This document shows positions 4,272 to 39,403 of a stretch of DNA of 64,000 nt, one piece after another. The translations under genes were made by a program, and so were the position numbers. Under the pieces are notes generated by a model. The model saw only the letters and a program-made list of their open reading frames with translations, did not search any database and was not told where the DNA came from. Positions within the stretch are counted from its first letter, which is position 1, and each line of letters begins with the position of its first letter. The DNA comes from an uncultured Candidatus Saccharibacteria bacterium. GTDB lineage: Bacteria; Patescibacteriota; Minisyncoccia; Phycocordibacterales; UBA9973. The stretch spans positions 1,286 through 65,285 of the forward strand of contig CAZDGL010000001.1 in NCBI GenBank assembly GCA_964505155.1, read 5' to 3'.

Positions 4272-4772
4272 TCACACTAAAGAGTGGTCTGGACAGCAGG
4301 GATCGAACCTGCGATCTGAAGTTTCCAAAACTCCCGGATTACCCCTTTCCCATGCCCAGATATATTCATCTATAATAGGTTGAATTTCTTGTTTATATCG
4401 ACTGTGAACATATTGATGATGTGTTGGACACAATGGCACTAAGTTTTCTGGTCGATTGTCACTATGGTCTTCGTTAACGTGATGTGCGGCAACGATCTTT
4501 TCTTCACCGCATATCAAACACTTTTTTCCATGATAAAAGAAACATGTTGATTGATAACTATCTTGCTTCCAATTACCATGTTTGTCTCCTGTTCGAAAAT
4601 ATGTATTTGAACAAGAATAACTACAAGTTACTGATTCACTTGTAAATTCTTTTGAACAAACAGGACATTTTTTAATTCCTTGACATGCTAACAAATGTCT
4701 GTTTAAAGAATTATTAGCAACTAATTTTCTACATTTCTGGCATTCTATTTTTGGATATTTTCTTGGTGACAT
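4272..4772 (-). CDS. HNH endonuclease (putative homing endonuclease) with N-terminal Cys-rich region
   Basis: HNH motif CLICGEEKIVAAHHVNEDHSDNRPENLVPLCPTHH; the C-terminal 29 codons read through tRNA-Pro; a CATAAATA motif plus an SD-containing hairpin lie upstream (4775..4798). Confidence 0.7.
   Translation of the reverse strand: MSPRKYPKIECQKCRKLVANNSLNRHLLACQGIKKCPVCSKEFTSESVTCSYSCSNTYFRTGDKHGNWKQDSYQSTCFFYHGKKCLICGEEKIVAAHHVNEDHSDNRPENLVPLCPTHHQYVHSRYKQEIQPIIDEYIWAWERGNPGVLETSDRRFDPCCPDHSLV
4285..4359 (-). tRNA. tRNA-Pro (anticodon UGG)
   Basis: Manual cloverleaf: acceptor CTGGGCA/TGTCCAG (one G.U), anticodon stem GGAGT/ACTTC, loop TTTGGAA, T-arm GCAGG-TTCGATC-CCTGC, CCA encoded. Confidence 0.7.
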
Positions 4773-6717: not shown

Positions 6718-6951
6718 TCACATAAAAGAAGCCAACGAAGGCAACACAGCAGCAAAAGAATTCATTTCGTTCTCATTATCAAACTGATAGAGGATCTCTC
6801 GTTGAAAGTTCTCAATACCATGTTTAGCAATAGCACGTTGAAGATGTTTTCCTGAACCCAAGTATCCGTCGTCTAGAATTTCAGTCTGGTGCTTTCCTCG
6901 ATAAACTTTCCTATCTATTAAGTTAGTGGTCTGGTATACAATGTAATGCAT
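6718..6951 (-). pseudogene. truncated GIY-YIG endonuclease (catalytic domain only, 77 aa)
   Basis: The first 60 aa match the 211 and 218 aa paralogs almost exactly (MHYIVYQTTNL...YLGSG...ENFQREILYQFDNE) and then diverge and stop; a convergent GIY-YIG gene lies immediately downstream. Confidence 0.6.
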
Positions 6952-7008: not shown

Positions 7009-7093
7009 CGGAAGGTTAGGGAGTCGAACCCTAGCTACCTTGCGGTAGGCTTCAGCTTTCCAAGCTGGCACATTACCACTCTGTCAACCTTCC
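7009..7093 (-). tRNA. tRNA-Ser (anticodon GGA), type II
   Basis: Acceptor GGAAGGT/ACCTTCC, 3-bp D-stem, anticodon loop TTGGAAA, long variable arm CTACC-GCAA-GGTAG, T-loop TTCGACT; 27:43 C.A mismatch. Confidence 0.6.
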
Positions 7094-7098
7094 AAAAA

Positions 7099-7186
7099 TG
7101 GAGGAGCATTCGGGGATCGAACCCGCGCTACCTTTCGGTAGACCTTCGCTTAGCAAGCGAGTACATTACCACTCTGTCAATACTCC
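7099..7186 (-). tRNA. tRNA-Ser (anticodon GCU), type II
   Basis: Acceptor GGAGTAT/ATGCTCC, anticodon stem CTCGC/GCGAG, loop TTGCTAA, long variable arm, T-arm GCGGG-TTCGATC-CCCGC, CCA encoded. Confidence 0.7.
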
Positions 7187-7916: not shown

Positions 7917-8058
7917 GCATCGACGTCCTTGATTGAGGGATTAAACGGAACTTCCATAAGCTCGTTTAGAATCTCTCTATCAAGCTTTCTCAATTAATAG
8001 TCGATCTGTCTGCGAAGATCAAGCAGGAAATCAATAAGCTCGGATCTTTCTTTGTCGT

Positions 8059-8457
8059 TCACTCGTCACTCTCCAAAAAGTATATGAAGTTCTTGTCTGC
8101 GGTGAAATTCGTAATGACGATGTTATAATACCCTTCGTCGGGTACGTCAAACGAAATCTCCTGCACACATCCCTTTTCTAAGGCACCTGCAATAGGTTCA
8201 CTCTCGTCTTCCTCGGTGGACGGATCGTCCATAGGAGCAACAAAAATTCCGAAATTTACTTCATCTTTTGCTTCACAATCTGGTGAAACTAGCGTAAGTG
8301 TGCTATGACTGGAAGGATCGAACTTGTTCAGGAATACAAGAGAAGAATTGGCAAACAACTTCCCACTGACGAACATCGGATATCCCTGCGGTGCAGCGAA
8401 TGCACCGACAGTCAACATACCAACGATAGCTGAACTTAGAACCAGATTTTTAAGCAT
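8059..8457 (-). CDS. secreted or periplasmic protein with signal peptide
   Basis: An internal Met gives MLKNLVLSSAIVGMLTVGAFA (signal-peptide-like) then an acidic mature region; the track ORF extends to 8511. Confidence 0.45.
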   Translation of the reverse strand: MLKNLVLSSAIVGMLTVGAFAAPQGYPMFVSGKLFANSSLVFLNKFDPSSHSTLTLVSPDCEAKDEVNFGIFVAPMDDPSTEEDESEPIAGALEKGCVQEISFDVPDEGYYNIVITNFTADKNFIYFLESDE

Positions 8458-8462
8458 TGTAG

Positions 8463-8657
8463 TCACTCCTTTTTGTTGTAGAACAATTCCGCTCCTGCGA
8501 CAAGCATACATCCGCTTGCTGAGCCAACGATAATAACTGCGAGAATGAATTGGAGGATAGTTTCCATATTTTCCATTACTCCTGATGCGAACGAGGCAAG
8601 ACCAAGCGAAGCAGTAGCAAAGATGAAAGCACGCATAACAAAAAACCTCTCGTTCAT
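8463..8657 (-). CDS. small hydrophobic membrane protein
   Basis: 64 aa ORF with two hydrophobic segments. Confidence 0.3.
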   Translation of the reverse strand: MNERFFVMRAFIFATASLGLASFASGVMENMETILQFILAVIIVGSASGCMLVAGAELFYNKKE

Positions 8658-8791
8658 TTCTGAAGAGAGGTTAGCTCATTTCTACAAAAGAGTCAAGTGG
8701 TTTTTAAAAGAAAAGTGGTGCTTCTAGAAGAAATCGAATCTTCGACTATCCCTTACCAAAGGATTATTTTACCATTAGAACTATAGAAGCA

Positions 8792-8867
8792 TGGTGCTTT
8801 CAATCAGGTTCGAACTGATGGCCTTTGCCGTGTCGAGGCAACGCTCTCCCAACTGAGCTATGAAAGC
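8792..8867 (-). tRNA. tRNA-Val (anticodon GAC)
   Basis: Acceptor GCTTTCA/TGAAAGC, D-arm GCTC-AGTTGGGA-GAGC, anticodon stem TTGCC/GGCAA, loop TCGACAC (C33), T-arm ATCAG-TTCGAAC-CTGAT, CCA encoded. Confidence 0.55.
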
Positions 8868-9214
8868 AAATTTAAGTGATCGGTAACCCCAATAAATTCA
8901 TCCCGATAATCTGGACCGATTGCTGCGCAGGTTAGAGTCGGTACACCATCGAATACGGTTCGACCTTCGTCCACAATAATAGCGGTAATCAATCCACGGT
9001 ACTTTGCTACATCAACAACCTGAAGCAACTCTTCCTCAGATTTGACTTCCAACACTACCTTAGTGAAGGAATCATTATAAAGCCACTCTAAAACGCGAGT
9101 ATCATCCATATTTTCGACGGTTGCCTTCAGTGAAGCATGTGCTCCCTGAGAAACCATCTTTCCTGCTCCCATACCAATATCAGTACGCATCAGGATAATC
9201 TGCTTTAGGTCCAT
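8858..9214 (-). CDS. peptidyl-tRNA hydrolase, PTH2 family
   Basis: IILMRTDIGMGAGKMVSQGAHASLKA matches the PTH2 signature (R.DL.MGKGK..AQ..HA); ATG at 9212..9214 with a GGAAGG SD; the track uses an upstream TTG. Confidence 0.75.
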   Translation of the reverse strand: MDLKQIILMRTDIGMGAGKMVSQGAHASLKATVENMDDTRVLEWLYNDSFTKVVLEVKSEEELLQVVDVAKYRGLITAIIVDEGRTVFDGVPTLTCAAIGPDYRDEFIGVTDHLNLLS

Positions 9215-9231
9215 GACCAACCTTCCAAAAA

Positions 9232-9305
9232 TGGTACCCAGTGAGGGAATCGAACCCCCGATGTCGCGGTGTAAACGCGATGCTTTCCCATTTAGCTAAC
9301 CGGGC
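9232..9305 (-). tRNA. tRNA-Val (anticodon UAC)
   Basis: Acceptor GCCCGGT/ACTGGGT (two G.U), anticodon stem TCGCG/CGCGA, loop TTTACAC, T-arm GGGGG-TTCGATT-CCCTC, CCA encoded. Confidence 0.65.
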
Positions 9306-9444
9306 ATAATAAAATCCGCTGCAGTGAAATAAGGCCGGTGCTTATTCCATACTATAACGAGTATGTCTGTTTAGCGACCGTGTCAAGGCATCGTTATATA
9401 CCAAGGATCCAAACGGCACAGAACTACAACTATCTGGTGGAGCT

Positions 9445-10080
9445 TCATCCCTTTCGGAACGAAACCCCTAACTTTCGACCTTTATACCATCCTTCTGGTA
9501 TCTGGTCAAGCTTTTTTATCTTACGATTCTCTGTTCCATTAGTGATCCACATAGATCCGAACTGAGAATTTTTCTCACCTTGTTGGTGAAGGGAATTAGC
9601 TTCACCTATTTTACGCTTATGATCATCTGAAAGATGTGACCCTGTAGAATCATATCCTAAATTTTTTTTAGCCCTATCAGCTAAAGCTTGTCTATGTGCA
9701 GAATTTGATTGTACTTTTAGTTTTGTGGCAATAATACTCTTGGCACGTTCTTCTTCAGTAAATCCAAATCTACGAGGTGTTAAATTATTTTGGTTGATAT
9801 ACCCAAATCCACCTTTACCACCGGGACAAATATTATAAGTGTTTGATAAATTACAAAAATCTTCAGTTACCAATTCAGCTTCCTTAGAGATCATATCGGC
9901 TTCATTATCGAATTGGTAGAGAATCTCTCGCTGGAAGTTCTCAATACCATATTTTTTAATAGCACGTCTGATCTGATTCCCAGACCCTAAGTACCTATCA
10001 TTCAGATCAGAAGTCTGATGCTTACCACGATAGATTTTACCATTAATCAGGTTTGTAGTCTGGTAGACGATATAATGCAT
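9445..10080 (-). CDS. GIY-YIG homing endonuclease (Seg-like), paralog family member
   Basis: MHYIVYQTTNLINGKIYRGKHQT...YLGSG motif; 211 aa; about 70% identical at the N-terminus to 39404..40060 and 6718..6951. Confidence 0.8.
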   Translation of the reverse strand: MHYIVYQTTNLINGKIYRGKHQTSDLNDRYLGSGNQIRRAIKKYGIENFQREILYQFDNEADMISKEAELVTEDFCNLSNTYNICPGGKGGFGYINQNNLTPRRFGFTEEERAKSIIATKLKVQSNSAHRQALADRAKKNLGYDSTGSHLSDDHKRKIGEANSLHQQGEKNSQFGSMWITNGTENRKIKKLDQIPEGWYKGRKLGVSFRKG

Positions 10081-10085
10081 AAAAG

Positions 10086-10132
10086 GGAAACTCCAGAACG
10101 CTTTTGCTATTATTTAGCGTTCTGGAGTTTCC
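10086..10132 (-). promoter_or_regulatory. 16-bp-stem hairpin with CTAAATAATAGCAAAA loop upstream of the GIY-YIG gene
   Basis: ggaaactccagaacgc / gcgttctggagtttcc; loop TTTTGCTATTATTTA; the SD lies in the 3' stem half. Confidence 0.6.
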
Positions 10133-10136
10133 GAAG

Positions 10137-10208
10137 TGGACTGATGGGGGATCGAACCCCAACTACCGCATTGCAAGTGCAGTGTGCTCCCATTATCACT
10201 ATCAGCCC
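10137..10208 (-). tRNA. tRNA-Ala (anticodon UGC)
   Basis: Acceptor GGGCTGA/TCAGTCC (G3.U70), anticodon stem CTGCA/TGCGG, loop CTTGCAA, T-arm TGGGG-TTCGATC-CCCCA; CCA not encoded. Confidence 0.7.
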
Positions 10209-10223
10209 AATAACTAACGAATT

Positions 10224-10297
10224 TGGTACCTGAGCCGCGAATCGAACGCGAGTGGACGGTTCCACAGACCGTCGCTTTACCACTAAGCTACTCAGGC
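10224..10297 (-). tRNA. tRNA-His (anticodon GUG), alphaproteobacterial type (no G-1, G1:U72, A73)
   Basis: Acceptor GCCTGAG/CTCAGGT with G1.U72, discriminator A, position -1 is U; anticodon stem ACGGT/ACCGT, loop CTGTGGA; T-arm TCGCG-TTCGATT-CGCGG; CCA encoded. Confidence 0.7.
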
Positions 10298-10327
10298 ATA
10301 ATCTCTATTACTTATATATGACACTTT

Positions 10328-10582
10328 TCACTCAGTGTCAACGGAAATCTTTTCGAGTGTGGATTTTCTTTTCACTTTGAAGAGTGGGGTAAGTTTGTAG
10401 ACGTAAACCTCATCCTCTTCAAGAAAATCGTCAAGATCGATATTGACGGGATCCTTCACGTCAAAAACGTACATATCCATATTTGATCCATCAGATCCAT
10501 CCAGATCAACCAGAGGATCGATGCCGGTCATTACCACATAGAAATCCTTGATTGAAGGACTTGGTTTCTTCTTAGCTGCCAT
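10328..10582 (-). CDS. hypothetical acidic protein
   Basis: Internal start MAAKKKPSPS with an AAGGA SD; the track's upstream start would lie inside the terminator hairpin. Confidence 0.4.
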   Translation of the reverse strand: MAAKKKPSPSIKDFYVVMTGIDPLVDLDGSDGSNMDMYVFDVKDPVNIDLDDFLEEDEVYVYKLTPLFKVKRKSTLEKISVDTE

Positions 10583-10593
10583 TTCTTTTTCCT

Positions 10594-10625
10594 TTGAAAA
10601 ATGGAGGAGCATTGTCTGCTCCTCC
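10594..10625 (-). terminator. rho-independent terminator (minus strand)
   Basis: GGAGGAGCA-gacaa-TGCTCCTCC followed by ATTTTTC, directly after the SPFH gene stop. Confidence 0.6.
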
Positions 10626-10642
10626 ATGTTTATAGTTTTATC

Positions 10643-11533
10643 TCACTGAGGAGTAGGTGTCAGATTCAGAAATGGTACTGCTGAACCCGGAATCATTTGT
10701 GCAGGAAGCTTTCCGTCCCACCGCTCAGCTTGCGTGAGTCGGATTAGATCCGGACTCTGCTTGAGAGCATCACCCTTGGCACGAATAGCATCAGCGTCTG
10801 CTTCACCTCGGATCCGAACAGCTTCTGCTGAGGCTTTGGCTTCAGCTAGTTGTGAGTCAGCACGTGCGTTTGCTTGCGTCACGGCAATCTCAGCATTGAT
10901 CTTTTCACGTTCGGCATTCTGACGGATCTTCTGAACTTCAACCTCGGCCATCATTCGGGCTTCGATAGACTGCTCATACTCGTCAGAAAAGTCGATATTC
11001 TCAATCTGAACCGAGATAATACTAACTGGACCTTCAACTGCAGCAATGATTGCTTGTTCAATATCAGTATTCAACTTAGCTCGATCCTGAACAATCGTTA
11101 CCGCATTATATCGACCGAACACGTTCTTGGTCTCTTCGTAAACCTTTGGATCAACCAAACGAAGGATCATATTGGATTCAGACCCATACTGTCGATAAAC
11201 CTCGTCTACAAAATCCGGTGCGATAACATAGTTCAATGAAAGTCGGACAGTTGCAGTCTGCTGGTCCTTAGAATATGCTGCAAGTCCACCAGTATACGTT
11301 CCGTCAGAATTCTGTGTTGCGTATGTTCGCACATTATCCCGAACCGAGATATCAACCACGTCATCTAGGAATGGAAGCTTGAATCCCAACCCCGGATTTG
11401 CTACACCCTGAAAAGCACCATTTCGAAGAATAACACCTCGATCACCCTCGTTTACTGTATAGAAACTTCCAAAAAACGTTGAAAGTCCTACGAGAGCAAC
11501 AATAAGAGCTAGTACACCTATTACATATTTCAC
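10643..11533 (-). CDS. SPFH / band-7 (HflK/C, prohibitin-like) membrane protein
   Basis: N-terminal TM then YTVNEGDRGVILRNGAFQGVANPGLGFKLPF...VRDNVRTYATQ (SPFH core) and an Ala/Glu-rich coiled-coil C-terminus; GTG start overlaps the upstream micro-ORF stop. Confidence 0.75.
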   Translation of the reverse strand: MKYVIGVLALIVALVGLSTFFGSFYTVNEGDRGVILRNGAFQGVANPGLGFKLPFLDDVVDISVRDNVRTYATQNSDGTYTGGLAAYSKDQQTATVRLSLNYVIAPDFVDEVYRQYGSESNMILRLVDPKVYEETKNVFGRYNAVTIVQDRAKLNTDIEQAIIAAVEGPVSIISVQIENIDFSDEYEQSIEARMMAEVEVQKIRQNAEREKINAEIAVTQANARADSQLAEAKASAEAVRIRGEADADAIRAKGDALKQSPDLIRLTQAERWDGKLPAQMIPGSAVPFLNLTPTPQ

Positions 11534-12486: not shown

Positions 12487-13131
12487 ATGTACTGTACATA
12501 TCTTACCATTTATTCAGGAAACTTATTGCCACCATTTTATATCGGGTATACTTCTATTTCAAGAATAGAATCTGGGTATAACGGAACAGTAACTTCACAA
12601 CGTTACGGAACAATATGGAAATCAGAACGAAAAGTCAATAAACATCTGTTCAAAACCATCATATTAAAACAATTCCATAACAGAAAAGAAGCATTATTAG
12701 CAGAATGTCAATTACATGAAAAATTAAAAGTTGATAAAAATCCTTTATATATCAACCAATCTTGTCAAAAATCAGACGGATTTACTTGTATAGGACACTC
12801 AAAGGAATCACGTAAAAGAATGTCAGAAACCAGAAAAGGTCGTAAAGGTCCAAATCTCGGTCGAGTATTAACTGAAGAATGGAAAGAAAATATCTCCAAA
12901 GGAAATAAAGGAAAACCAAAATCTGAAACTACAAAGAAAAAAATGTCGGAATCATTTAAAACTAGAAGATGGTGGACTAACGGTATTATTGATAAATTTA
13001 CGTCAGAATACCTCGGTGAAGGATGGAGACGTGGCATGAGAAAAAATCCTAATAGAAAAGGATTTCTTCCCGGTAATCAATATCGATTCAATCCAAAAAA
13101 CCATGATATTCCTGCCAAGCATGATAACTGA
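12487..13131 (+). CDS. GIY-YIG homing endonuclease (Seg-like) with NUMOD3 repeats
   Basis: YCTYLTIYSGNLLPPFYIGYT...; repeats SKESRKRMSETRKGRKG / TEEWKENISKGNKGK; preceded by GATAAATAG plus an SD-containing hairpin. Confidence 0.7.
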   Translation: MYCTYLTIYSGNLLPPFYIGYTSISRIESGYNGTVTSQRYGTIWKSERKVNKHLFKTIILKQFHNRKEALLAECQLHEKLKVDKNPLYINQSCQKSDGFTCIGHSKESRKRMSETRKGRKGPNLGRVLTEEWKENISKGNKGKPKSETTKKKMSESFKTRRWWTNGIIDKFTSEYLGEGWRRGMRKNPNRKGFLPGNQYRFNPKNHDIPAKHDN

Positions 13132-13936
13132 TGTATTCAACAACTCTATGTTTGTCCATTGCGTATAATCCTGCGCAGGCCAGTGAGTTAAGTTCTACGA
13201 TTTTTGGACCGTTCTCCGTCAATGCGACATCGCAGATATAGACAGAATCCGGTTGCCAGATATGGTTAGCCATCTTCCATGCCATATCCATACAGTCCTT
13301 ATCCCAATCATGTCGGATGTCAAGGACATTATCCCATCGGTATTCGGATCCATCGACCACTTCACGATTGACAATCAAAAACCGAAATTCGGCTTTGATG
13401 TTCTTTGCTGAGGAAATCAGGCATAGAGTCTCATCCTGAACACTGGTCAATTGCATGGAGGACGATAGCTCGTCTGCCACATTATCAATAGTGATAACAA
13501 ATCCAGTGAAAGTCTTGAACCCGGATACCGGACGAATGAACACGCAATCTGATTTGAAAATATCAAATACTCGAAGTGGATTATCTCTCACTTCTTTGAA
13601 AGGAAGAATGATGTAGTCCGCATTGAGTAGAGAATTCTTAGGAAGATTTGGGTAATAGAAATTGCAATTCATGTTCTGACCGATGCCGTAGGCACCCGGT
13701 GTGAAACCCATCTTGCATTTGGATACGTATCCATGTGTGCCATAAAGCACAACAATGTCTGCAGAAGTATATGGACCGTAATCCTGAACCTCTGCAAACG
13801 GAATGTATTTAGTTTCATGAAGGGAGCATCCGTGAGCTTTGATAGCTCCTAGAAGATCTCCTACCGTGGATCTAGAATCCAGAATATGAGTGTCAACTGC
13901 CCACGCTACTTGGTTTGGTGTATACCGCATTTTCAT
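13088..13936 (-). CDS. ATP-grasp-fold protein (putative peptide or amine ligase)
   Basis: C-terminal VYICDVALTENGPKIVELNSLACAG resembles the ATP-grasp E.N..PG signature; 282 aa. Confidence 0.45.
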   Translation of the reverse strand: MKMRYTPNQVAWAVDTHILDSRSTVGDLLGAIKAHGCSLHETKYIPFAEVQDYGPYTSADIVVLYGTHGYVSKCKMGFTPGAYGIGQNMNCNFYYPNLPKNSLLNADYIILPFKEVRDNPLRVFDIFKSDCVFIRPVSGFKTFTGFVITIDNVADELSSSMQLTSVQDETLCLISSAKNIKAEFRFLIVNREVVDGSEYRWDNVLDIRHDWDKDCMDMAWKMANHIWQPDSVYICDVALTENGPKIVELNSLACAGLYAMDKHRVVEYISYHAWQEYHGFLD

Positions 13937-17505: not shown

Positions 17506-17973
17506 TTAAGTTTCGTTGGTCTGATGGTGGGTATACTTGAATGAACGATCCCATTTTGTATATGCTTGGGATAGAATGTAGTTCTCGTCCAGATCGTATT
17601 CGAAATACATCTTGTTGAGAATTCCTAGAACGTCTCCCAACTCAATTTCTAGGAGACGTCGATTTGTGGTCTGTCTTGGATCATCAGGATGATAGGATTC
17701 GTATCCGTGTCGCTTGATCTTCTGAGCAATCATAATTACTTCAGACAATTCTTCCACAAGCATATCGAGCCGCTCTGTTTCAGCAGGAGTCAATCCGTTG
17801 AAGTGGACTTGTGATTCAGCTTCCAAGGCTCGTTCTTTCCAATATTCTGCATCCGTGTTTTCTTTGAACGGATAAAATCTTCCAGCACCATCGGCAATCT
17901 TCACGCTAGCTACTGAAGCCGTGTTCCTAGAAGCCACTTCAGCAGCACCTCTCAATCCAGCATTATCCAACAT
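17506..17973 (-). CDS. MazG-like all-alpha NTP pyrophosphohydrolase (T4 dCTPase gp56-like?)
   Basis: EExxE-type helix LVEELSEVIMIAQKIKRHG and E...LGDVL motifs. Confidence 0.5.
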   Translation of the reverse strand: MLDNAGLRGAAEVASRNTASVASVKIADGAGRFYPFKENTDAEYWKERALEAESQVHFNGLTPAETERLDMLVEELSEVIMIAQKIKRHGYESYHPDDPRQTTNRRLLEIELGDVLGILNKMYFEYDLDENYILSQAYTKWDRSFKYTHHQTNET

Positions 17974-18947
17974 TATAATATTTCCAAACAGTGGTTGATT
18001 GAATCGTTCAAATTATACTTAGGTCTCCATCGCAGGATGGATTCAGCACATCGGGTATCCGGTATTCGAGTCTTCACGTCGTTCGGATATTCCTTGACGG
18101 TTTCAAACTCCAGATCCACACCACGGAAATCAATCAGACCCTTCAGGTATGCCAGATCCGCAATCGTCTGCGCGAGCCTGCGCATGGTGACTGCCTCGGT
18201 GGATCCAAGATTGTAAACCGTGTTGTAGGTCTCCACATCAAACGATAGATTAGCAATCGCTAATGAGGTATCTCGAATATCTGTGAAGCATCTAATCTGG
18301 AACCCATTTCCAATGATAGGAAGCTTCTTGTTCTTCAGGACTACGATCTGGTGGATATAATCAGCAAAGACGTGTGAACTACCGATTTCATACTCGGCAG
18401 TCTCATACGGTGTGATGATATTGAACGGTCTCCAGATTGTATACGGAAGCTGGTATTGCTCCCAGTATGCTTTGGATAGACGTTCACCCACATACTTCGA
18501 AAGACCATAATCCGTCTTGTGGACACGTGAGGTTTCGGTCATCCACTCTTCAGCAGTCTCCAGATTCTCATAGACCATGGAAGAAGAAATGTAAACTACT
18601 CTTTTGACGGTTTCGATGTTATAAGCAGACCGCAGGATGTTGCTGTGCAGCGTGATATCATTTCCGAGAATATCTGCAGGATGAGACGAAAATCCACCGA
18701 CTCCGAAAATCGTGGCAGCACCCTGAATCACATAATCAGGTTGGACTTCACGAAACAAAATGTCTACCACATTCGGATGGATCAAATCCAACTTATGAAA
18801 ATCATACTTGACATTTGCGATATTTCGACGTTGCTTATATCTGGAAAGATTGTCTACACCAACCACATCATGTCCATTGTTTACAAGATGTGGGATAACG
18901 GATTGCATGAGAGATCCTTCGGATCCCGTTACTAAAACTCTGCTCAT
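17973..18947 (-). CDS. NAD-dependent sugar epimerase/dehydratase (extended SDR)
   Basis: N-terminal VLVTGSEGSLM Rossmann motif and catalytic YGLSK (YxxxK). Confidence 0.7.
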   Translation of the reverse strand: MSRVLVTGSEGSLMQSVIPHLVNNGHDVVGVDNLSRYKQRRNIANVKYDFHKLDLIHPNVVDILFREVQPDYVIQGAATIFGVGGFSSHPADILGNDITLHSNILRSAYNIETVKRVVYISSSMVYENLETAEEWMTETSRVHKTDYGLSKYVGERLSKAYWEQYQLPYTIWRPFNIITPYETAEYEIGSSHVFADYIHQIVVLKNKKLPIIGNGFQIRCFTDIRDTSLAIANLSFDVETYNTVYNLGSTEAVTMRRLAQTIADLAYLKGLIDFRGVDLEFETVKEYPNDVKTRIPDTRCAESILRWRPKYNLNDSINHCLEIL

Positions 18948-19100
18948 GTGATTACTTCTTCCGAATAAAAGTGCTAATAATGCCTACTGCTAATATGAAT
19001 AGAAAAATCCAAAGAAATGGAAAGACCAACGGATAATGATGAGCCAACTGTTCACCAAATCTAGCACCCAAACATACTGTTGATAGGTTGCAGGGATCCA

Positions 19101-20492
19101 TCAAAGTATCTCAATTCCATTTAGACTGTTTGGTGTGAATTTTGAAGTGATATCCACTAGGATAACACCCTTCTTGAAGAATCGCTTCCACAACGATTTC
19201 TTATCAGCAAAAACCTTATGTGGAGTCATGACAATAATCATATCGTATTCACCGAAGTTCGGTAGCTTGGAATATTTAGCCACGTAAGGATCGTAGATAT
19301 CGTAGACGATTCCATTGCGCTTCAGAATCTTTGCCATTCTAAATGACAAGGAATTTCGGGTATCATCCGACTCTGGTTTAAATGCGGCACCAAGGATTAG
19401 AACCTTCTGTGGTCGAGGATAAACCTGAAGCTCATTCCACAGATAGTCCACGATGTTTTCATTAATCGTGAAGCTACCACGGATCAGTTCCGAATACGGA
19501 ATCTTACTCAGCAAGAAGTGGCCATCCTTATAGAGGCACGGACCAGCAGCAAATCCCGGCTTATCCATATTCATTCGAGGATAATCGAAATTTGCCAGAT
19601 TGATGATCTTGGTCGCATCGACACCATGCTCGCGACAAATGATATAGAATTCATTCGCAAGTGCGAAGTTCACATACCGATACATGTTGGTGATCAGCTT
19701 CGCTAGTTCGGCTTCTTCCCATGACACGAATCCATAACTGAATTCATCCTGAATAGATTGTTTGGGGAAAAGTCTTTGAACTTTAGCCAAAACATCAGAC
19801 TGGAATTGTCGTGAATAATCGATGGTCATGTCGTATCTCTTATTCGGTGCATCCGAATTCCACTCGTATCCGATGATTTGTGGAAGCTCCTTGAATTCAG
19901 TCAATCCATGTCCCTGTGATACTCGTTCAGGAGCAAAAAACATGAAGTAGTCGATACCATGGACATAACCATAATTAGCTAGCTTCTGGGAAATAGCTCT
20001 GGTGGTACCCGGAATAACCGTAGACCGAAGGACGAAGATGTGTCCCTTGATTTCTCCAATTGAATGGAGATATTCAAAGTAGTTGAAAATATCGTCCACT
20101 GACGGATTGCCGTTCTCATCAATTGGTGTACCGATCATAATGCAGATCATTCTAGCTCTGCGTACGGCTTCTGGATCCGTGGTGAATTCAACCATCCGAT
20201 GATAAAGCTTGGAGCTTAGAAGTGACTCGGCATCGTCCTCTAGATATGGAACGATGCCCATATTGAGCTTATCGACTACTTCCTGATTTTTATCGATGCC
20301 GATTACCTTACGGTAAGACTGAGCAATGGACAAACTGAACGGAAGTCCCACGTGGCCAGCGGCACCAATCACTGCCACGTAATCGTCTCTATCATCTTTT
20401 GTTTGAAGTGATACTCCACCAACATATCGTGAAGAGGTTTGTACTGCCATTTCCATTAATATCTTTCTTCGGTGTTCAGGAAGGTTTCCCAC
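19101..20492 (-). CDS. nucleotide-sugar dehydrogenase (UDP-glucose/GDP-mannose dehydrogenase family)
   Basis: VIGAAGHVGLP (GxGxxG) and catalytic-Cys motif GFAAGPCLYKD; 463 aa. Confidence 0.75.
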   Translation of the reverse strand: MGNLPEHRRKILMEMAVQTSSRYVGGVSLQTKDDRDDYVAVIGAAGHVGLPFSLSIAQSYRKVIGIDKNQEVVDKLNMGIVPYLEDDAESLLSSKLYHRMVEFTTDPEAVRRARMICIMIGTPIDENGNPSVDDIFNYFEYLHSIGEIKGHIFVLRSTVIPGTTRAISQKLANYGYVHGIDYFMFFAPERVSQGHGLTEFKELPQIIGYEWNSDAPNKRYDMTIDYSRQFQSDVLAKVQRLFPKQSIQDEFSYGFVSWEEAELAKLITNMYRYVNFALANEFYIICREHGVDATKIINLANFDYPRMNMDKPGFAAGPCLYKDGHFLLSKIPYSELIRGSFTINENIVDYLWNELQVYPRPQKVLILGAAFKPESDDTRNSLSFRMAKILKRNGIVYDIYDPYVAKYSKLPNFGEYDMIIVMTPHKVFADKKSLWKRFFKKGVILVDITSKFTPNSLNGIEIL

Positions 20493-20683
20493 GTCTGGAT
20501 ATCAGCTATAACATAGGCTTCTGGTGTTTGTTCTGCTTTGTCTTTATAATCTTCCAGATAATCCTGATAGAATTCAGGAGCCATCCCAACAGCATAATCA
20601 CGCTCGTTCTCACCCATGCGATCAGTCATTTCATTAATAAACCGACTTTTGAATTCCATCAGAGTCAACTTTTTGCGTTTCAT
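20456..20683 (-). CDS. hypothetical protein
   Basis: 75 aa ORF. Confidence 0.3.
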   Translation of the reverse strand: MKRKKLTLMEFKSRFINEMTDRMGENERDYAVGMAPEFYQDYLEDYKDKAEQTPEAYVIADIQTWETFLNTEERY

Positions 20684-21217
20684 TTAATTCACAAACTTTC
20701 TAACTTGCCAAGCCCAATCGGTGCAAATACCGTAGCAATCCAATTCTTTGGTTGCGTTGAGGTTGGCTTCCAAACTAATATCTGGATTCCAGTTTTCTGG
20801 AAGCACAGCAATCGAATTCTTATAGACTGGTTGACCGGGATAAGTCCAGATCTTTCCATCGGTCGTCATCACACCAGCGTCCTTATCATGAAAGAACAGA
20901 TATGGAACACATCGAAGATGGAGTAGGTGATTCAGGACCGTGAGATCCTTGCAATGGAAGTAAGTATACGGAGCAATATCGATCACATAGTCAAGAGTTA
21001 CTGGATAATAACATCCACCTTCATGTCCTATAACGAAATCGTGCTTTTCTCCTGCTGCCGAAGATTCAGTATCAATCGTCCATCCAGTAAATGCTAGAGT
21101 GTTGATATCTACCTCAACCATAAATCCAGCATTGATAGCTTGTTCGATAGCTTCCGGTGAGTTTTCGGTTTGGTCGTTTGGACCTTGCATAAGGCCACGG
21201 TGGGCAATGACGATCAT
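20684..21217 (-). CDS. glycerophosphodiester phosphodiesterase (GDPD)-like
   Basis: Internal start MIVIAHRG...ENSPEAIEQAINAGFMVEVDI (HRG...EN...E.D); AGGA SD upstream; the track ORF extends to 21328. Confidence 0.55.
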   Translation of the reverse strand: MIVIAHRGLMQGPNDQTENSPEAIEQAINAGFMVEVDINTLAFTGWTIDTESSAAGEKHDFVIGHEGGCYYPVTLDYVIDIAPYTYFHCKDLTVLNHLLHLRCVPYLFFHDKDAGVMTTDGKIWTYPGQPVYKNSIAVLPENWNPDISLEANLNATKELDCYGICTDWAWQVRKFVN

Positions 21218-21296
21218 TATAGGAGTCCTAGATACATTGATAGAAAGAATACGAACACCAAAAATGCTGAATAGATGGAAATAGCAATAACATACT

Positions 21297-22040
21297 TCAT
21301 TCAGACTTCCAGTCTTTGTACTGCCCATTTGGTGTGTGCTGAAGCTGTTTAGGAATGTTTACTTCCACATGCTCAGACCTAGATTCGATCAAATCCTTCA
21401 CGAAGATGTGAGGACAGAACCTATTATATTTAAGCGTCAATCGTGTCAATTCCTTGATATTAGACATGCTCCACGTCAAATCTTCGATCTTTCTTCGAGT
21501 TGACATGAAAAACATATCCCCGGTTCCCTGACCAGTATGATTGCGGTGAAAGAGAGTATAGAATTTCGTAGGATCCGCGTTTGCAATCACATCAACGATT
21601 TCTGGTCCGACTACCAGATCAGGACGCATTCGGATGACTAGATCATAATCTCGGGATATTCCACCATTTCGGTAAAAGTTGTTCATCCCTTCGTTCATGA
21701 GCCAGAATTGGGATAGTGTATTAACTGGACGGATTTCCTGACAATAAGGCTCGAAGATTTTGGCTTCAGCTATAAAACTCGGTTCATAGAGCTTGAAGCT
21801 CTGAACATCAATATGTTCTGCACCGTAAGTATTTTTAACAGCGTGCCAGTTTATCTTTGGACTTTCTGGATTGATACCCTTCTTTGTAGTATCAGCTTCA
21901 GGAGAAATCCAATATCCCTCATCATCCCATGTAGTTATATAGACCGAAGGTTGAAATGGTTCTAGGATATACTGGTAGGTGTTGATGAAAACCTGTTGCC
22001 AGCACCGCATATGACCAGTCAATACTAGAGCTATTTTCAT
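21297..22040 (-). CDS. putative glycosyltransferase-like protein (paralog of 24767..25492)
   Basis: MKIALVLTGHMR... versus ...KIALCLSGQPR...; family not assigned. Confidence 0.3.
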   Translation of the reverse strand: MKIALVLTGHMRCWQQVFINTYQYILEPFQPSVYITTWDDEGYWISPEADTTKKGINPESPKINWHAVKNTYGAEHIDVQSFKLYEPSFIAEAKIFEPYCQEIRPVNTLSQFWLMNEGMNNFYRNGGISRDYDLVIRMRPDLVVGPEIVDVIANADPTKFYTLFHRNHTGQGTGDMFFMSTRRKIEDLTWSMSNIKELTRLTLKYNRFCPHIFVKDLIESRSEHVEVNIPKQLQHTPNGQYKDWKSE

Positions 22041-22270
22041 TAGATTACTAAGCTCGTTTCACCTTGATGTTTAACCAAGTGCCATGATTTCAAACACTTG
22101 TGACAATACAACGTAGTTCTATAGTAATTCGGATCTTCTATATGATATTCACCTTGCTTATCATAATAATGAAACGAACCCATACACGTACTTGAAGTAC
22201 CTTGATCTTCAATAGTGCAATCATCCCGTTCACACTCAGAAGTTATTTTTATAACATGATGACTTCTCAT
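22040..22270 (-). CDS. Cys-rich small protein
   Basis: 76 aa, multiple CxxC-like spacings. Confidence 0.3.
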   Translation of the reverse strand: MRSHHVIKITSECERDDCTIEDQGTSSTCMGSFHYYDKQGEYHIEDPNYYRTTLYCHKCLKSWHLVKHQGETSLVI

Positions 22271-22442
22271 TCTTCCAAATCCTTCAATCGATATAGTTCT
22301 TCAGCGATTTGATCAGGAATACACGAATATCGGATCCACCGAAGCGGTCCAGTTTCCAGTTTACATTCTGGTCGATCACACATTCCATTGCCAGTCCGCT
22401 TCATGCAAAACTGGTCAAGCCAATCAATCATTTGATCAAAAT

Positions 22443-22883
22443 TTACCACCACCAATGGATCCAGATTTGTTCGTCGTCACCGATACCCTGCTCGCGCAGA
22501 TATTGCACGATAGCATCCACCATCAATGGACCTTCTTCCCACTTATGGGTTTCATCATTCCATCGATCAACTGTGGTACCTTCTTCTACAGTGTCTAGAA
22601 GATTGTTGATTGACGTCTTGAAAATATAGTTGTCGTTTCCAAGCTCACATAATCTCCAAATATCCTGAACTTGAGTTTCTACCTCAACCGGACAATCGGA
22701 CCACTGGGCATCCAGAATATACTGCTTTCGGACAGCTTTGCGATGATTAGGTTCTAGTGGCTTTGACTGCCAATCATCAAACTTGTGATTATATGAGGAT
22801 GTTCTTCCAGACCATTCAACCATTATGATTCTCCAAAAAGTACTTGAGATCTTCTGGGGTTCCAGTTCCCCACATACCCTCAA
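22443..22883 (-). CDS. hypothetical protein
   Basis: 146 aa ORF. Confidence 0.35.
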   Translation of the reverse strand: MRVCGELEPQKISSTFWRIIMVEWSGRTSSYNHKFDDWQSKPLEPNHRKAVRKQYILDAQWSDCPVEVETQVQDIWRLCELGNDNYIFKTSINNLLDTVEEGTTVDRWNDETHKWEEGPLMVDAIVQYLREQGIGDDEQIWIHWWW

Positions 22884-24186
22884 TCTGCTTCACTCTAAAT
22901 TTCTTGCCTTCGGCAATCAGGTAATTGATTGTCGGTGCCACATAGAATTCACCATTGGTGCGATCATCCGCAGTGATCATTTGTTCTACGGAACGACAAT
23001 AATCAGAGCCGCGAGACCAAAAGTAAACACCAACAGTAGCGTTATCAGATATCGGGTTCTTCTCGGCAATGCGCTCCACAAACCCATCGTCTGATAGCTT
23101 TGCAAAGCTCCATTTAGGATGAGTAGATTTGAAGGTGACAATTCCACCGTCGATGCCGTCTGCGGCAAACGCGTACATGACTTCATTTGAATTCCAATCC
23201 AGATACTGATCTGAATTAGCTATCACAAGAGGCTCGTCATTGTCAATGTATTTCCGAGCCAACATTGTGGTACATGCAGCACCTTCGGTTAGACCGTCAA
23301 CCTGAACTACCGTGCATCCCGGTTTGATGAGAGAAAGCATTTGACCGAGATTGTACTTCTCGTAATGCTCCTTCTGGACAATGAAAATATAATTTGCATC
23401 AATATTGAGGTTCTCGACCACCATTTGAATCATAGGCTTTCCCCGAACCTCGATCAGAGGTTTAGGAAAGGTGTAACCTGCAGCAGCAAAGCGCGAACCT
23501 GCACCTGCCATCGGAATGAGTACGTTCATCTTTTTATTAATCCATGGAATCTTAGGAGTGAATTGAGGTAGATCCGAAAAATTCTGTCGGACGAAATCTA
23601 GAGTGAATCCATCCACATTCTCAACCGGAACCAGTCTGGCACCAGAGGCTATTGCACCCTGACGACCGATATGTGAATCTTCTACGATAATGGTAGTCGA
23701 CGGAACCGCGTCCATTGCCATCATACACTGGAAATACATATCCACAGCAGGCTTAGGACGCTTGACATCCTCGTTGGAAATATAGTAATCGATCCACGGC
23801 ATAATTCCCATGAATAGAAGTGCCTGCTTCAACGTCGACCGAACAGAATTCGATGCCACGGCAATATGATAGCCTAACTGCTTAAGCTCCAGAATGATGT
23901 CGATGTTCTTCTGGTTCACATCAATCATGGCATACTCTAGAAGAGTATATTCCTGCTTTGCCTTCCAAATAGCATCATGCAATCCAGCAGGTAATCCCTT
24001 TTTATTAGAAAGCATTTGGAGCTTCTTAGTAGTCGGAAGTCCATCGTAAATAGACAAATGCTCCTCACGAGAAATTACCGCTGATGGGTAATAGTCATGA
24101 AGAGCATTATTGAGAGAATTGTAGTGTATCTCTCTGGAATCTAAAAGAACACCATCGAGATCTAGAATCACTAGTTTATTTGTCAT
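22816..24186 (-). CDS. bifunctional HAD-like hydrolase / sugar-phosphate nucleotidyltransferase
   Basis: N-terminal LVILDLDGVLLDS (HAD motif I) and IVEDSHIGRQGA (motif IV); C-terminal VLIPMAGAGSRF...PKPLIEV nucleotidyltransferase signature. Confidence 0.65.
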   Translation of the reverse strand: MTNKLVILDLDGVLLDSREIHYNSLNNALHDYYPSAVISREEHLSIYDGLPTTKKLQMLSNKKGLPAGLHDAIWKAKQEYTLLEYAMIDVNQKNIDIILELKQLGYHIAVASNSVRSTLKQALLFMGIMPWIDYYISNEDVKRPKPAVDMYFQCMMAMDAVPSTTIIVEDSHIGRQGAIASGARLVPVENVDGFTLDFVRQNFSDLPQFTPKIPWINKKMNVLIPMAGAGSRFAAAGYTFPKPLIEVRGKPMIQMVVENLNIDANYIFIVQKEHYEKYNLGQMLSLIKPGCTVVQVDGLTEGAACTTMLARKYIDNDEPLVIANSDQYLDWNSNEVMYAFAADGIDGGIVTFKSTHPKWSFAKLSDDGFVERIAEKNPISDNATVGVYFWSRGSDYCRSVEQMITADDRTNGEFYVAPTINYLIAEGKKFRVKQIEGMWGTGTPEDLKYFLENHNG

Positions 24187-24371
24187 TTCTTATAGTCTTT
24201 TCTACCCTGTATCTTGTGTGCTTCATCTTTTGTAGGGACTCGATCCCACACGGATCGTTTTAGATACCCTGCTCCATCACACTCGTCACATTCCTTGTCC
24301 CCATAGAAATCCATTCCAAAGGGACCATAGTCTGCAACCTTACCATATCCATCACAATTCGGGCATCTCAT
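24183..24371 (-). CDS. small DnaJ-type zinc-finger protein
   Basis: CPNCDGYGKV and CDECDGAGYL (CxxCxGxG repeats), 62 aa. Confidence 0.4.
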   Translation of the reverse strand: MRCPNCDGYGKVADYGPFGMDFYGDKECDECDGAGYLKRSVWDRVPTKDEAHKIQGRKDYKK

Positions 24372-24498
24372 TTATCATTCCACCACCAATAGGTTTTATA
24401 GATACTCATTATCAACCCAAAGGCAAATAATGCACCGATAGTACCACCTACAATAACACCTAAAAATATTTGAAAATATATGAATATCTCGGCAAGCA

Positions 24499-39330: not shown

Positions 39331-39356
39331 AGGAGCCGAAAGGCTCCTTAATTCTT
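39331..39356 (+). terminator. rho-independent terminator (GNRA tetraloop hairpin)
   Basis: AGGAGCC-GAAA-GGCTCCT then TAATTCTT; near-identical to the hairpin at 40726. Confidence 0.6.
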
Positions 39357-39403
39357 GGTGCGGACTAGCGGTAACGATCCGCTTTCTACTCGTTGGCAAC
39401 GAG

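What the first reader, a model, noticed from the sequence alone, without database searches (positions are those of the whole stretch)
8858..9214. PTH2-family peptidyl-tRNA hydrolase embedded between two tRNA-Val genes
A 118-aa ORF has the PTH2 signature (RTDIGMGAGKMVSQGAHA), i.e. the archaeal/eukaryotic-type peptidyl-tRNA hydrolase rather than bacterial Pth. It sits inside the tRNA island with its stop overlapping the 5' end of tRNA-Val(GAC). Its SD region reuses a 17-nt sequence (caaccttccaaaaatgg, 9218..9234) identical to the junction between the two tRNA-Ser genes (7085..7101). A phage-encoded Pth2 next to phage tRNAs suggests active management of peptidyl-tRNA drop-off during takeover, possibly to counter host tRNA-targeting defences or to recycle phage tRNAs.
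Basis: partly seen in the sequence, partly recalled or inferred. Interest (0 to 1): 0.55.

Follow-up and report, generated by a model that had tools for sequence, protein, structure and literature searches.

The report
Phage Pth2 hydrolase inside tRNA cluster
A T4-like phage carries a small archaeal/eukaryotic-type enzyme gene (Pth2) that should free tRNAs stuck to unfinished peptides; it is packed between two phage tRNA genes, and this kind of phage gene is already known and annotated, so the find is real but ordinary.

Summary
The 118-aa ORF at 8858-9214 (- strand) is a full-length PTH2-family protein: Pfam PF01981 E=2e-26, AlphaFold pLDDT 95, TM 0.84-0.88 to solved Pth2 structures, and the family's Lys/Asp pair is kept. 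It lies 17 nt after tRNA-Val(UAC). Its last 10 nt, including the TAG stop, are the first 10 nt of tRNA-Val(GAC). The 17-mer repeat is exact.

It reads CCA-TTTTT-GGAAGGTTG, that is a tRNA 3' end, a spacer and the first 9 nt of tRNA-Ser(GGA). It is most likely a recombination relic that also supplies the ribosome-binding site.

The gene is under purifying selection (dN/dS 0.14 against a 96%-identical relative).

Phage Pth2 is already known. It is annotated in Myrna, Baka, phiM12 and several jumbo phages, discussed in two papers, and found in at least 234 IMG/VR stretches. About half of 97 fetched loci also have same-strand tRNAs nearby.

The best reading is a peptidyl-tRNA recycling enzyme co-transcribed with the phage tRNAs. 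A counter-defence role is plausible but untested. The 10-nt overlap is lineage-specific, and two homing-endonuclease ORFs in the same window also run into tRNAs.

Verdict: a new member of a known kind, of low to moderate interest.

The parts
8858..9214 (-). pth2 coding sequence (118 aa plus TAG stop)
   Evidence: ORF listing and translation. PF01981 E=2e-26, full length. phrog_1866 E=1e-34. AF2 pLDDT 95.1. Foldseek finds Pth2 structures at TM 0.84-0.88. dN/dS 0.14 against L003.
9215..9231 (-). 17-nt leader between tRNA-Val(UAC) and the ATG: UUUUU spacer, then GGAAGG Shine-Dalgarno-like purine run 6-7 nt before the ATG
   Evidence: Sequence read directly. The leader is kept in relative L003 as TTTTTGGAAAGGTTGATCATG.
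9218..9234 (-). 17-mer copy 1: CCA of tRNA-Val(UAC) + TTTTT + GGAAGGTTG
   Evidence: Exact repeat, 0.01 expected by chance.
7085..7101 (-). 17-mer copy 2: CCA of tRNA-Ser(GCU) + TTTTT + the first 9 nt of tRNA-Ser(GGA)
   Evidence: In L003 this junction reads CCA-CTAA-GGAAGGTTG, so the full 17-nt identity is specific to the window.
9232..9305 (-). tRNA-Val(UAC), CCA encoded, directly upstream of pth2
   Evidence: ARAGORN. Rfam tRNA 62.8 bits.
8792..8867 (-). tRNA-Val(GAC); its first 10 nt (8858-8867) encode the end of Pth2 (..L L S stop)
   Evidence: ARAGORN. Rfam tRNA 64 bits. Identical in L003. Junction sequence.
8716..8790 (-). tRNA-Thr(GGT), 1 nt after tRNA-Val(GAC)
8638..8672 (-). Terminator-like hairpin (AACCUCUCUUCA..UGAACGAGAGGUU) followed by U6; probable 3' end of the tRNA/pth2 transcript
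   Evidence: RNA fold gives -17.2 kcal/mol, z=-2.3. The consensus scan missed it because of a bulge.
10313..10341 (-). Promoter-like TTGACA-17 nt-TATATA just upstream of tRNA-His; candidate start of the tRNA/pth2 transcription unit
   Evidence: Read directly. The same element (TTGACT-17-TATATA) is in L003. Not detected by the scan, which requires T at position 6 of the second hexamer. Weak evidence.
9445..10080 (-). GIY-YIG (SegE-like) homing endonuclease gene between tRNA-Ala and tRNA-Val(UAC); absent from L003
   Evidence: PF19835. phrog_314 E=3e-41. Synteny break.

Best explanation
The ORF encodes an active Pth2-type peptidyl-tRNA hydrolase of a roughly 151-kb T4-like myovirus.

Proposed mechanism:
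- It is transcribed on the same strand as the phage tRNAs, probably as part of one precursor: tRNA-His, tRNA-Ala, (homing endonuclease), tRNA-Val(UAC), pth2, tRNA-Val(GAC), tRNA-Thr(GGT), terminator-like hairpin.
- Translation starts from a short leader whose GGAAGG serves as the ribosome-binding site.
- The enzyme cleaves the ester bond of peptidyl-tRNAs and other N-blocked aminoacyl-tRNAs that fall off ribosomes. This returns free tRNA, host and phage, to the pool while the phage drives translation hard.
- It supplements the host's single essential Pth1 with an unrelated enzyme.

Shown here: family membership, fold, conserved Lys19/Asp82, purifying selection, the physical arrangement, and recurrence of the tRNA neighbourhood in other phages.

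Inferred: catalytic activity, co-transcription, and the physiological role.

The 17-mer is best read as a recombination relic in an island full of homing endonucleases, namely a tRNA 3' end, a spacer and the 5' stub of a tRNA-Ser(GGA), which now provides the Shine-Dalgarno sequence. The 10-nt overlap with tRNA-Val(GAC) is best read as extreme gene packing.
For: Family, fold and residues:
- PF01981 full-length, E=2e-26. PDB Pth2 enzymes at E=1e-19 to 2e-9.
- AF2 pLDDT 95.1, pTM 0.88. The top 14 Foldseek PDB hits are all Pth2 structures.
- K19 and D82 are invariant across 19 phage and metagenome homologues. They align with S. solfataricus K18 and D86. That these two are catalytic is from memory of Fromant et al. 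2005.

Selection:
- dN/dS is 0.14 against L003, and tRNA-Val(GAC) is identical in the two.

Arrangement:
- Gaps of 17 nt and -10 nt to the flanking tRNAs, all on the - strand.
- No terminator-like site lies between 9305 and 8716. A hairpin with a U-run follows tRNA-Thr.
- Of 97 other pth2 loci, 45 have tRNAs within 3-5 kb, and all 272 of those tRNAs are on the pth2 strand.
- Five further arrangements (six loci) have a tRNA starting 1-9 nt after the pth2 stop. Two have a tRNA ending 2-12 nt before the start.

Literature:
- The same role has been proposed for jumbo-phage PTH2 (PMC7824862).
Against: - No activity, expression or phenotype data exist for any phage Pth2.
- The protein scores below NCBI's cut-offs for the archaeal Pth2 equivalog models: 96.3 against 126, and 80.5 against 82. 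It is a divergent subfamily, so substrate range could differ.
- About half of phage pth2 genes, including those of Myrna, Baka and phiM12, are not near tRNAs. tRNA linkage is therefore not required for function.
- I ran no matched random-gene control for the tRNA-neighbourhood enrichment, and the loci are not phylogenetically independent.
- The promoter assignment is weak.
- RNase P processing of tRNA-Val(GAC) would remove the stop codon, which complicates a simple co-transcription model.
Confidence: 0.6

Rival explanations
1. Counter-defence enzyme. Pth2 exists mainly to undo host immunity that attacks charged tRNA or stalls ribosomes. It would deacylate N-acetyl-aminoacyl-tRNAs made by GNAT toxins of the TacT/AtaT type. 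Alternatively it would release peptides from tRNA fragments left on ribosomes after anticodon-nuclease attack. A non-bacterial enzyme type would be insensitive to any host control of Pth1.
For: [quoted passage not shown]
- Iyer et al. place jumbo-phage PTH2 among RNA-repair and ribosome-rescue counter-measures (PMC7824862).
- In other phages pth2 sits near tRNA/RNA-repair-type genes: an RNA 2'-phosphotransferase (PF01885) and a ligase in L012, a tRNA adenosine deaminase in Astolliot, a RelA/SpoT-family protein in phiM12, and DUF2828 in L004 and L014.
- Phage tRNA clusters themselves act as anti-defence loci (abstract of PMC13096335).
Against: No defence or anti-defence link has been demonstrated for any phage Pth2. 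There is no PADLOC hit. This window has no recognisable RNA-repair gene next to pth2. The idea also overlaps the housekeeping explanation mechanistically, since it is the same chemistry on different substrate sources.
Confidence: 0.25
2. The overlap is a regulatory coupling. The pth2 stop codon lies inside tRNA-Val(GAC), so RNase P cleavage at the tRNA 5' end would turn the pth2 message into a non-stop mRNA. Full-length, untagged Pth2 would then be made only from unprocessed precursor. Pth2 output would be tied inversely to tRNA maturation, or the truncated message would feed the ribosome-rescue pathways.
For: - The 10-nt overlap is real and the tRNA is bona fide at 64 bits.
- The overlap is kept, with an identical tRNA, in L003.
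- pth2 abuts a downstream tRNA within 1-9 nt in five other arrangements, so the mRNA 3' end is commonly set by a tRNA.
Against: - An actual overlap is seen only in the window and its 96%-identical relative. All other lineages keep the stop outside the tRNA.
- Two homing-endonuclease ORFs in the same window also run into tRNAs: 4272-4772 through tRNA-Pro, and 39404-40060 for 26 nt into tRNA-Gly(GCC). Overlap therefore looks like a tolerated by-product of cassette insertion and tight packing, not something specific to pth2.
- There are no transcript data.
Confidence: 0.1
3. Passenger gene. pth2 plus tRNA-Val(GAC) is a small block spread among related phages by homing-endonuclease-driven co-conversion, and it confers little or no benefit on this phage.
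For: - The pth2/Val(GAC) block is 95.4% identical between window and L003, while the flanks are 74-86%.
- Its synonymous divergence (dS 0.13) is well below that of neighbouring genes (0.36 to above 0.8).
- L003 has HNH endonuclease genes on both sides of the block, each with a replaced tRNA allele and a leftover tRNA fragment.
- The window has GIY-YIG and HNH genes in the island.
Against: - dN/dS of 0.14 and an intact ORF with all invariant residues.
- The family is widespread and conserved in hundreds of phage contigs and 3307 clusters at 50% identity. That is not expected for a neutral passenger.
- Recent transfer and usefulness are compatible with each other.
Confidence: 0.05

Closest known systems
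Archaeal/eukaryotic Pth2 enzymes (PF01981; M. jannaschii MJ0051 2ZV3, A. fulgidus AF2095 3ERJ, S. solfataricus 1XTY, human PTH2/Bit1 1Q7S)
   Same: Same length (about 115-120 aa). Full-length profile match. Same predicted fold (TM 0.84-0.88). 31-40% identity. The GK-Lys and D-x-G-x-T Asp motifs are conserved.
   Different: Encoded by a bacteriophage whose host should have Pth1. Scores below the NCBIfam equivalog cut-offs for archaeal Pth2. Has DEG instead of DAG after the conserved Asp, and one extra C-terminal Ser supplied by the tRNA overlap.
Previously annotated phage Pth2 genes (PHROG 1866; Mycobacterium phages Myrna gp36 and Baka gp70, Sinorhizobium phage phiM12, Klebsiella phage RaK2 ORF188, jumbo phages Atu_ph07, XacN1, SCTP-2)
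   Same: Same family at 36-54% identity, with phrog_1866 at E=1e-34. Already interpreted as a peptidyl-tRNA hydrolase for tRNA recycling or ribosome rescue.
   Different: This one is in a distant aquatic-type T4-like myovirus (major capsid protein 63% to Methylophilales phage Melnitz and Pelagibacter phage Mosig). It is sandwiched directly between two tRNA-Val genes with a 10-nt ORF/tRNA overlap. Myrna, Baka and phiM12 have no tRNA within 3 kb of pth2.
Bacterial Pth1 (PF01195), the host-type peptidyl-tRNA hydrolase
   Same: Same expected reaction and substrates (established knowledge; PMC4929431).
   Different: Unrelated sequence and fold. No Pth1 match for this ORF. Works like Pth1 but is not a member.
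T4 tRNA gene region with SegB homing endonuclease
   Same: A T4-like phage tRNA cluster interspersed with small ORFs and GIY-YIG/HNH homing endonuclease genes, which drive preferential inheritance or amplification of the tRNA region (abstract of PMC13096335; T4 details from memory).
   Different: To my knowledge T4 has no pth2 in its tRNA cluster. Here the block between endonuclease insertion sites carries pth2 plus tRNA-Val(GAC).

Membership tests
PTH2 peptidyl-tRNA hydrolase (Pfam PF01981) | Full-length match to the family profile above the curated gathering score | tested here: met
   92.9 bits against a cut-off of 23, E=2e-26, profile positions 1-115 of 115.
PTH2 peptidyl-tRNA hydrolase (Pfam PF01981) | Pth2 alpha/beta fold as in the solved structures | tested here: met
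   AF2 model pLDDT 95.1. The top 14 Foldseek PDB hits are all Pth2 (2ZV3, 3ERJ, 1RLK, 1XTY, 1WN2, 1Q7S). The 13 crystal-structure chains give TM 0.79-0.88; the NMR model 1RZW gives 0.59. The next hit has E=0.3.
PTH2 peptidyl-tRNA hydrolase (Pfam PF01981) | Conserved active-site Lys and Asp (S. solfataricus K18 and D86; catalytic role recalled from Fromant et al. 2005, not re-read here) | tested here: met
   Query K19 aligns with K18 and D82 with D86 in the 1XTY alignment. Both are invariant in 19 homologues.
PTH2 peptidyl-tRNA hydrolase (Pfam PF01981) | Hydrolysis of N-blocked aminoacyl-tRNA / complementation of a pth-deficient cell | not testable with these tools
   Needs an enzyme assay or E. 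coli pth(ts) complementation.
Archaeal Pth2 equivalog (NCBIfam NF003314 / TIGR00283) | Score above the equivalog cut-off | tested here: not met
   96.3 against 126 bits, and 80.5 against 82 bits. It is a divergent phage-type subfamily, not an orthologue of the archaeal enzyme by NCBI's rule.
Phage Pth2 group (PHROG 1866) | Significant full-length match to the phage protein family profile | tested here: met
   E=9.9e-35, residues 2-117 on profile positions 7-125 of 126. 32 phage records hit by tblastn. 234 IMG/VR stretches.
Bacterial Pth1 (PF01195) | Match to the Pth1 profile | tested here: not met
   PTH2 is the only Pfam family reported at E<=1.
tRNA-mRNA co-transcription unit | Same strand, no intervening terminator, minimal spacers, shared promoter and terminator | tested here: inconclusive
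   Same strand, with gaps of 17 and -10 nt. No terminator-like site lies inside the block. A hairpin with a U-run follows tRNA-Thr. Only a weak promoter-like site lies upstream of tRNA-His. There are no transcript data.

The most novel reading that the evidence does not exclude
In this phage lineage the ends of the pth2 message are set by tRNA processing. RNase P maturation of tRNA-Val(GAC) would cut off the last 10 nt of the ORF, stop codon included. The mRNA for a peptidyl-tRNA hydrolase would itself become a non-stop message. Production of untagged Pth2 would then be coupled inversely to tRNA maturation and to the cell's ribosome-rescue capacity. More generally, three ORFs in this genome that run into tRNAs would make it a bacterial-virus analogue of mitochondrial tRNA punctuation.
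Probability: 0.08. Interest if true: 0.55.

Novelty: new member of a known kind. Interest (0 to 1): 0.25.

Why it matters
The locus adds a clear, well-supported Pth2 to a poorly sampled group of aquatic T4-like phages. The survey also shows that roughly half of phage pth2 genes sit in same-strand tRNA clusters, often only a few nucleotides from a tRNA. This supports the view that phages carry pth2 as part of a tRNA-supply module.

No phage Pth2 has been tested experimentally. A compact 118-aa example with obvious catalytic residues is a convenient candidate for a pth(ts) complementation test and for asking whether phage Pth2 counters tRNA-acylating toxins.

The identification itself does not change what is known.

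Tried and rejected
- Megablast of 8000-11000 against the phage collection found nothing, so there is no close cultured relative.
- An exact search of IMG/VR for the pth2/tRNA junction (TTGCTTTCATAGCTCAGTTGG) found only giant-virus and other tRNA-Asn genes with the same 5' arm, and no pth2.
- Single-sequence AlphaFold gave a useless model at pLDDT 39. It was replaced by the alignment-based model.
- PADLOC gave no hit.
- I could not retrieve a paper stating the Pth2 catalytic residues. PMC2253226 is not held, and the term search hit Pth1 Lys182 instead. The Lys/Asp catalytic assignment therefore rests on memory.
- Looking up the window's own protein returned only a 1-kb Logan contig. The cluster table shows the protein also sits on a 151,180-bp NCBI/Logan contig.
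- In the dN/dS script the 'orf133' pair was mismatched (18% identity) and is ignored.
- I considered the 17-mer as a general leader or SD motif. This is rejected, because GGAAGGTTG and TTTTTGGAAGG occur as such only at these two - strand sites plus one unrelated + strand site.
- I considered the 17-mer as pure chance. This is rejected (0.01 expected), although CCA and a T-rich spacer are generic. L003 has a different Ser-Ser spacer.
- The sigma-70 consensus scan found no promoter directly upstream of pth2.
- A literature search for ORF/tRNA overlap giving non-stop mRNAs in phages found nothing relevant.

Full report
**1. The observation**

The region was read directly. An ORF runs on the - strand from the ATG at 9214 to the TAG at 8858-8860. 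It is 118 aa long and contains RTDIGMGAGKMVSQGAHA at residues 10-27.

ARAGORN finds 12 tRNA genes in the window, all on the - strand. tRNA-Val(UAC) lies at 9232-9305 and tRNA-Val(GAC) at 8792-8867. Rfam's tRNA model scores them at 62.8 and 64 bits, and Val(GAC) is the best-scoring tRNA of the island.

The ORF and tRNA-Val(GAC) share 8858-8867. The tRNA's first ten bases, GCTTTCATAG, supply the last base of Leu116, then Leu117, Ser118 and the stop.

The 17-mer occurs exactly twice, at 7085-7101 and 9218-9234. Shuffles give 0.01 expected matches.

**2. What the protein is**

- Pfam gives one family only, PF01981 PTH2: E=2e-26, 92.9 bits against a cut-off of 23, end to end.
- PHROG 1866 matches at 1e-34.
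- The best matches among solved structures are Pth2 enzymes: M. jannaschii, A. fulgidus, T. acidophilum, S. solfataricus, human Bit1 and P. horikoshii, at E=1e-19 to 2e-11.
- An AlphaFold model built on 16 homologues has pLDDT 95.1. Its top 14 Foldseek PDB hits are all Pth2 chains. The 13 crystal-structure chains score TM 0.79-0.88, the NMR model 1RZW scores 0.59, and the next hit drops to E=0.3.
- In a 19-sequence alignment of phage and metagenome homologues, K19, Q23, H26, D82, G84 and T86 are invariant. K19 and D82 align with S. solfataricus K18 and D86. I recall these as the residues shown to be essential by Fromant et al. 2005, but I could not re-read that paper.
- The protein scores just below, or well below, NCBI's equivalog cut-offs for archaeal Pth2. 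It is a divergent, phage-type member, not an orthologue of the archaeal enzyme.
- There is no match to bacterial Pth1.

**3. Is it a live gene?**

A Logan contig, L003, carries a 96%-identical copy in a syntenic region. Between the two copies there are about 10 synonymous and 5 non-synonymous changes. That gives dN/dS of 0.14, and tRNA-Val(GAC) is identical.

The family is large. There are 3307 clusters at 50% identity with E<=0.001, and at least 234 matching stretches in IMG/VR viral contigs.

**4. The genome**

The window encodes the following T4-type proteins:

- major capsid protein (gp23-like)
- portal (gp20-like)
- scaffold
- clamp loader (gp44-like)
- gp46/47-like nuclease
- UvsW
- family B DNA polymerase (gp43-like)

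The capsid protein is 63% identical to those of Methylophilales phage Melnitz and Pelagibacter phage Mosig.

No nucleotide-level relative exists in the phage collection. The exact Pth2 protein is on a 151,180-bp contig in NCBI/Logan. This is a distant, probably aquatic, T4-like myovirus.

**5. Anatomy of the locus**

Reading the - strand, the order is:

1. A promoter-like TTGACA-17-TATATA at 10341-10313, conserved in L003.
2. tRNA-His and tRNA-Ala.
3. A 16-bp hairpin that covers the GGAG in front of a GIY-YIG homing endonuclease gene at 10080-9445.
4. tRNA-Val(UAC).
5. A 17-nt leader, UUUUUGGAAGGUUGGUC.
6. pth2.
7. tRNA-Val(GAC), overlapping pth2 by 10 nt.
8. One base, then tRNA-Thr(GGT).
9. 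About 45 nt later, a hairpin followed by U6.

No terminator-like site lies within the tRNA-pth2-tRNA block. Co-transcription of pth2 with the tRNAs is therefore the simplest model, but it remains an inference.

**6. The 17-mer**

On the coding strand it reads CCA-TTTTT-GGAAGGTTG. At 7101-7085 this is the 3' CCA of tRNA-Ser(GCU), a 5-nt spacer and the first nine bases of tRNA-Ser(GGA). At 9234-9218 it is the CCA of tRNA-Val(UAC), the same spacer and the same nine bases, which here carry the Shine-Dalgarno-like GGAAGG 6-7 nt before the ATG. Similarity stops sharply after the ninth base.

In L003 the pth2 leader is kept as TTTTTGGAAAGGTTGATC, although a homing-endonuclease cassette separates it from tRNA-Val(UAC). 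The Ser-Ser junction there has a different spacer, CCA-CTAA-GGAAGGTTG.

L003 also contains an obvious relic. A roughly 33-nt 5' fragment of the window-type tRNA-Val(UAC) is fused to a different tRNA-Val(UAC) allele next to an HNH gene. Cassette insertions in this island therefore do leave tRNA stubs.

The most economical reading is that the pth2 leader is, or was converted from, a 5' stub of tRNA-Ser(GGA). It would be a by-product of recombination that happens to work as a ribosome-binding site. I found no sign that the motif is used elsewhere.

**7. The overlap**

Canonical Pth2 proteins end ...L-K-L-L-stop. Here the frame continues one codon (Ser) into the tRNA.

In five other arrangements (six loci: L028, L041, L052/L053, L056, L079) a tRNA starts 1-9 nt after the pth2 stop. 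In two (L001, L025) a tRNA ends 2-12 nt before the start. A true overlap is seen only in the window and L003.

Two other ORFs in the window also run into same-strand tRNAs. Both are homing endonucleases:

- HNH at 4272-4772, running through tRNA-Pro.
- GIY-YIG at 39404-40060, running 26 nt into tRNA-Gly(GCC).

Overlap is therefore a tolerated outcome of tight packing and cassette insertion in this genome. It is not a pth2-specific device.

It does follow from established RNase P biology that cleavage at the tRNA 5' end would leave a stop-less pth2 message. Whether this matters is unknown. I keep it as the most novel reading that is not excluded, at low probability.

**8. Wider pattern**

Of 97 other pth2 loci fetched (IMG/VR, Logan/JGI/ENA contigs and GenBank phages), 45 have at least one tRNA within the 3-5 kb flanks. 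All 272 such tRNAs are on the pth2 strand.

The loci are not independent, and I ran no matched control. Even so, for genomes of 100-500 kb this is far more than a random gene would show.

Myrna, Baka, phiM12, SCTP-2, Xoo-sp13 and Astolliot have no tRNA near pth2. The linkage is frequent but not obligatory.

**9. Mosaicism**

Between the window and L003, the block running from the TTTTT leader through pth2 and tRNA-Val(GAC) is 95.4% identical. The flanks are 74-86% identical. Synonymous divergence of pth2 (0.13) is well below that of neighbouring genes (0.36 and above).

L003 has HNH genes on both sides of the block, each with a replaced tRNA allele. The window has a GIY-YIG gene where L003 has none.

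This fits homing-endonuclease-driven exchange in tRNA clusters, as known for T4 SegB (abstract of PMC13096335; T4 details from memory). It also suggests that pth2 travels with the tRNAs.

**10. Comparison with what is known, and verdict**

Phage Pth2 is already annotated in many GenBank phages. It is discussed for RaK2 (PMC3622015) and for jumbo phages, where a role in releasing peptidyl-tRNA during ribosome rescue was proposed (PMC7824862). I found no experimental study of a phage Pth2.

The enzyme would work like bacterial Pth1 but is not a member of that family. It is a member of PF01981 and PHROG 1866.

The finding is real, correctly identified and well supported. It is a new member of a known kind. 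The local peculiarities, namely the sandwich between two tRNA-Val genes, the 10-nt overlap and the tRNA-stub leader, are best explained by packing and recombination in a homing-endonuclease-rich tRNA island.

Interest: 0.25.

Noticed in passing
window 4272-4772 (-) with tRNA-Pro 4285-4359; window 39404-40060 (-) with tRNA-Gly(GCC) 39356-39429: Two homing-endonuclease ORFs have no stop before the downstream same-strand tRNA and read into it. One is HNH-like, the other a GIY-YIG paralogue of 9445-10080. The first reads through the whole tRNA-Pro and the second 26 nt into tRNA-Gly. With pth2, that makes 3 of 12 tRNAs overlapped by an upstream ORF.
   Followed up: partly
L003 4075-4982 and 5436-6122 versus window 9232-9312 and 8740-8779: In the 96%-related contig, HNH endonuclease genes sit on both sides of the pth2/tRNA-Val(GAC) block. 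Each comes with a different allele of the adjacent tRNA (Val-UAC, Thr-GGT). A roughly 33-nt 5' fragment of the window-type tRNA-Val(UAC) is left behind. This looks like intron-less homing that targets tRNA genes and brings a replacement tRNA.
   Followed up: partly
window 10086-10132 (-), just upstream of the GIY-YIG gene start at 10080: A perfect 16-bp inverted repeat (GGAAACTCCAGAACGC ... GCGTTCTGGAGTTTCC) followed by CTTTT. Its 3' arm contains the GGAG in front of the endonuclease ATG. This could be a terminator and/or a translational block on the homing endonuclease.
   Followed up: no
window 6718-6951 (-): A 77-aa ORF matching only the N-terminal part of the GIY-YIG homing endonuclease family (phrog_314), directly downstream of tRNA-Ser(GGA). 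It is probably a decayed endonuclease gene.
   Followed up: no
window 36677-37507 (-): A 276-aa ORF with a dATP/dGTP diphosphohydrolase N-terminal domain (PF18909, E=9e-22; phrog_801). PHROG 2252 also matches strongly. Enzymes of this type are linked (from memory) to phages that replace or modify a DNA base. Two N6/N4 DNA methylases lie nearby at 40928-41701 and 43946-44692.
   Followed up: no
window 17973-29513 (-): A run of sugar-nucleotide and glycosyltransferase genes: an NAD-dependent epimerase/dehydratase, a UDP-glucose/GDP-mannose dehydrogenase, a HAD hydrolase fused to an NTP-transferase, a family-10 fucosyltransferase and a GT2. That is unusual cargo for a T4-like phage and may serve DNA or virion glycosylation, or host surface modification.
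   Followed up: no
L010 1205-1957 (phiM12), L012 3921-4445, L019 1090-1539, L004 1-334 and L014 1811-3265: In other phages pth2 lies near a RelA/SpoT-family protein, an RNA 2'-phosphotransferase (PF01885) plus a ligase, a tRNA adenosine deaminase, and DUF2828/DUF7788 proteins respectively. This suggests a looser tRNA-care gene neighbourhood.
   Followed up: no
window 10643-11533 and 13088-13936 (-): An SPFH/Band-7 protein and an ATP-grasp (R2K clade) protein flank the tRNA island. Both are conserved in L003.
   Followed up: no
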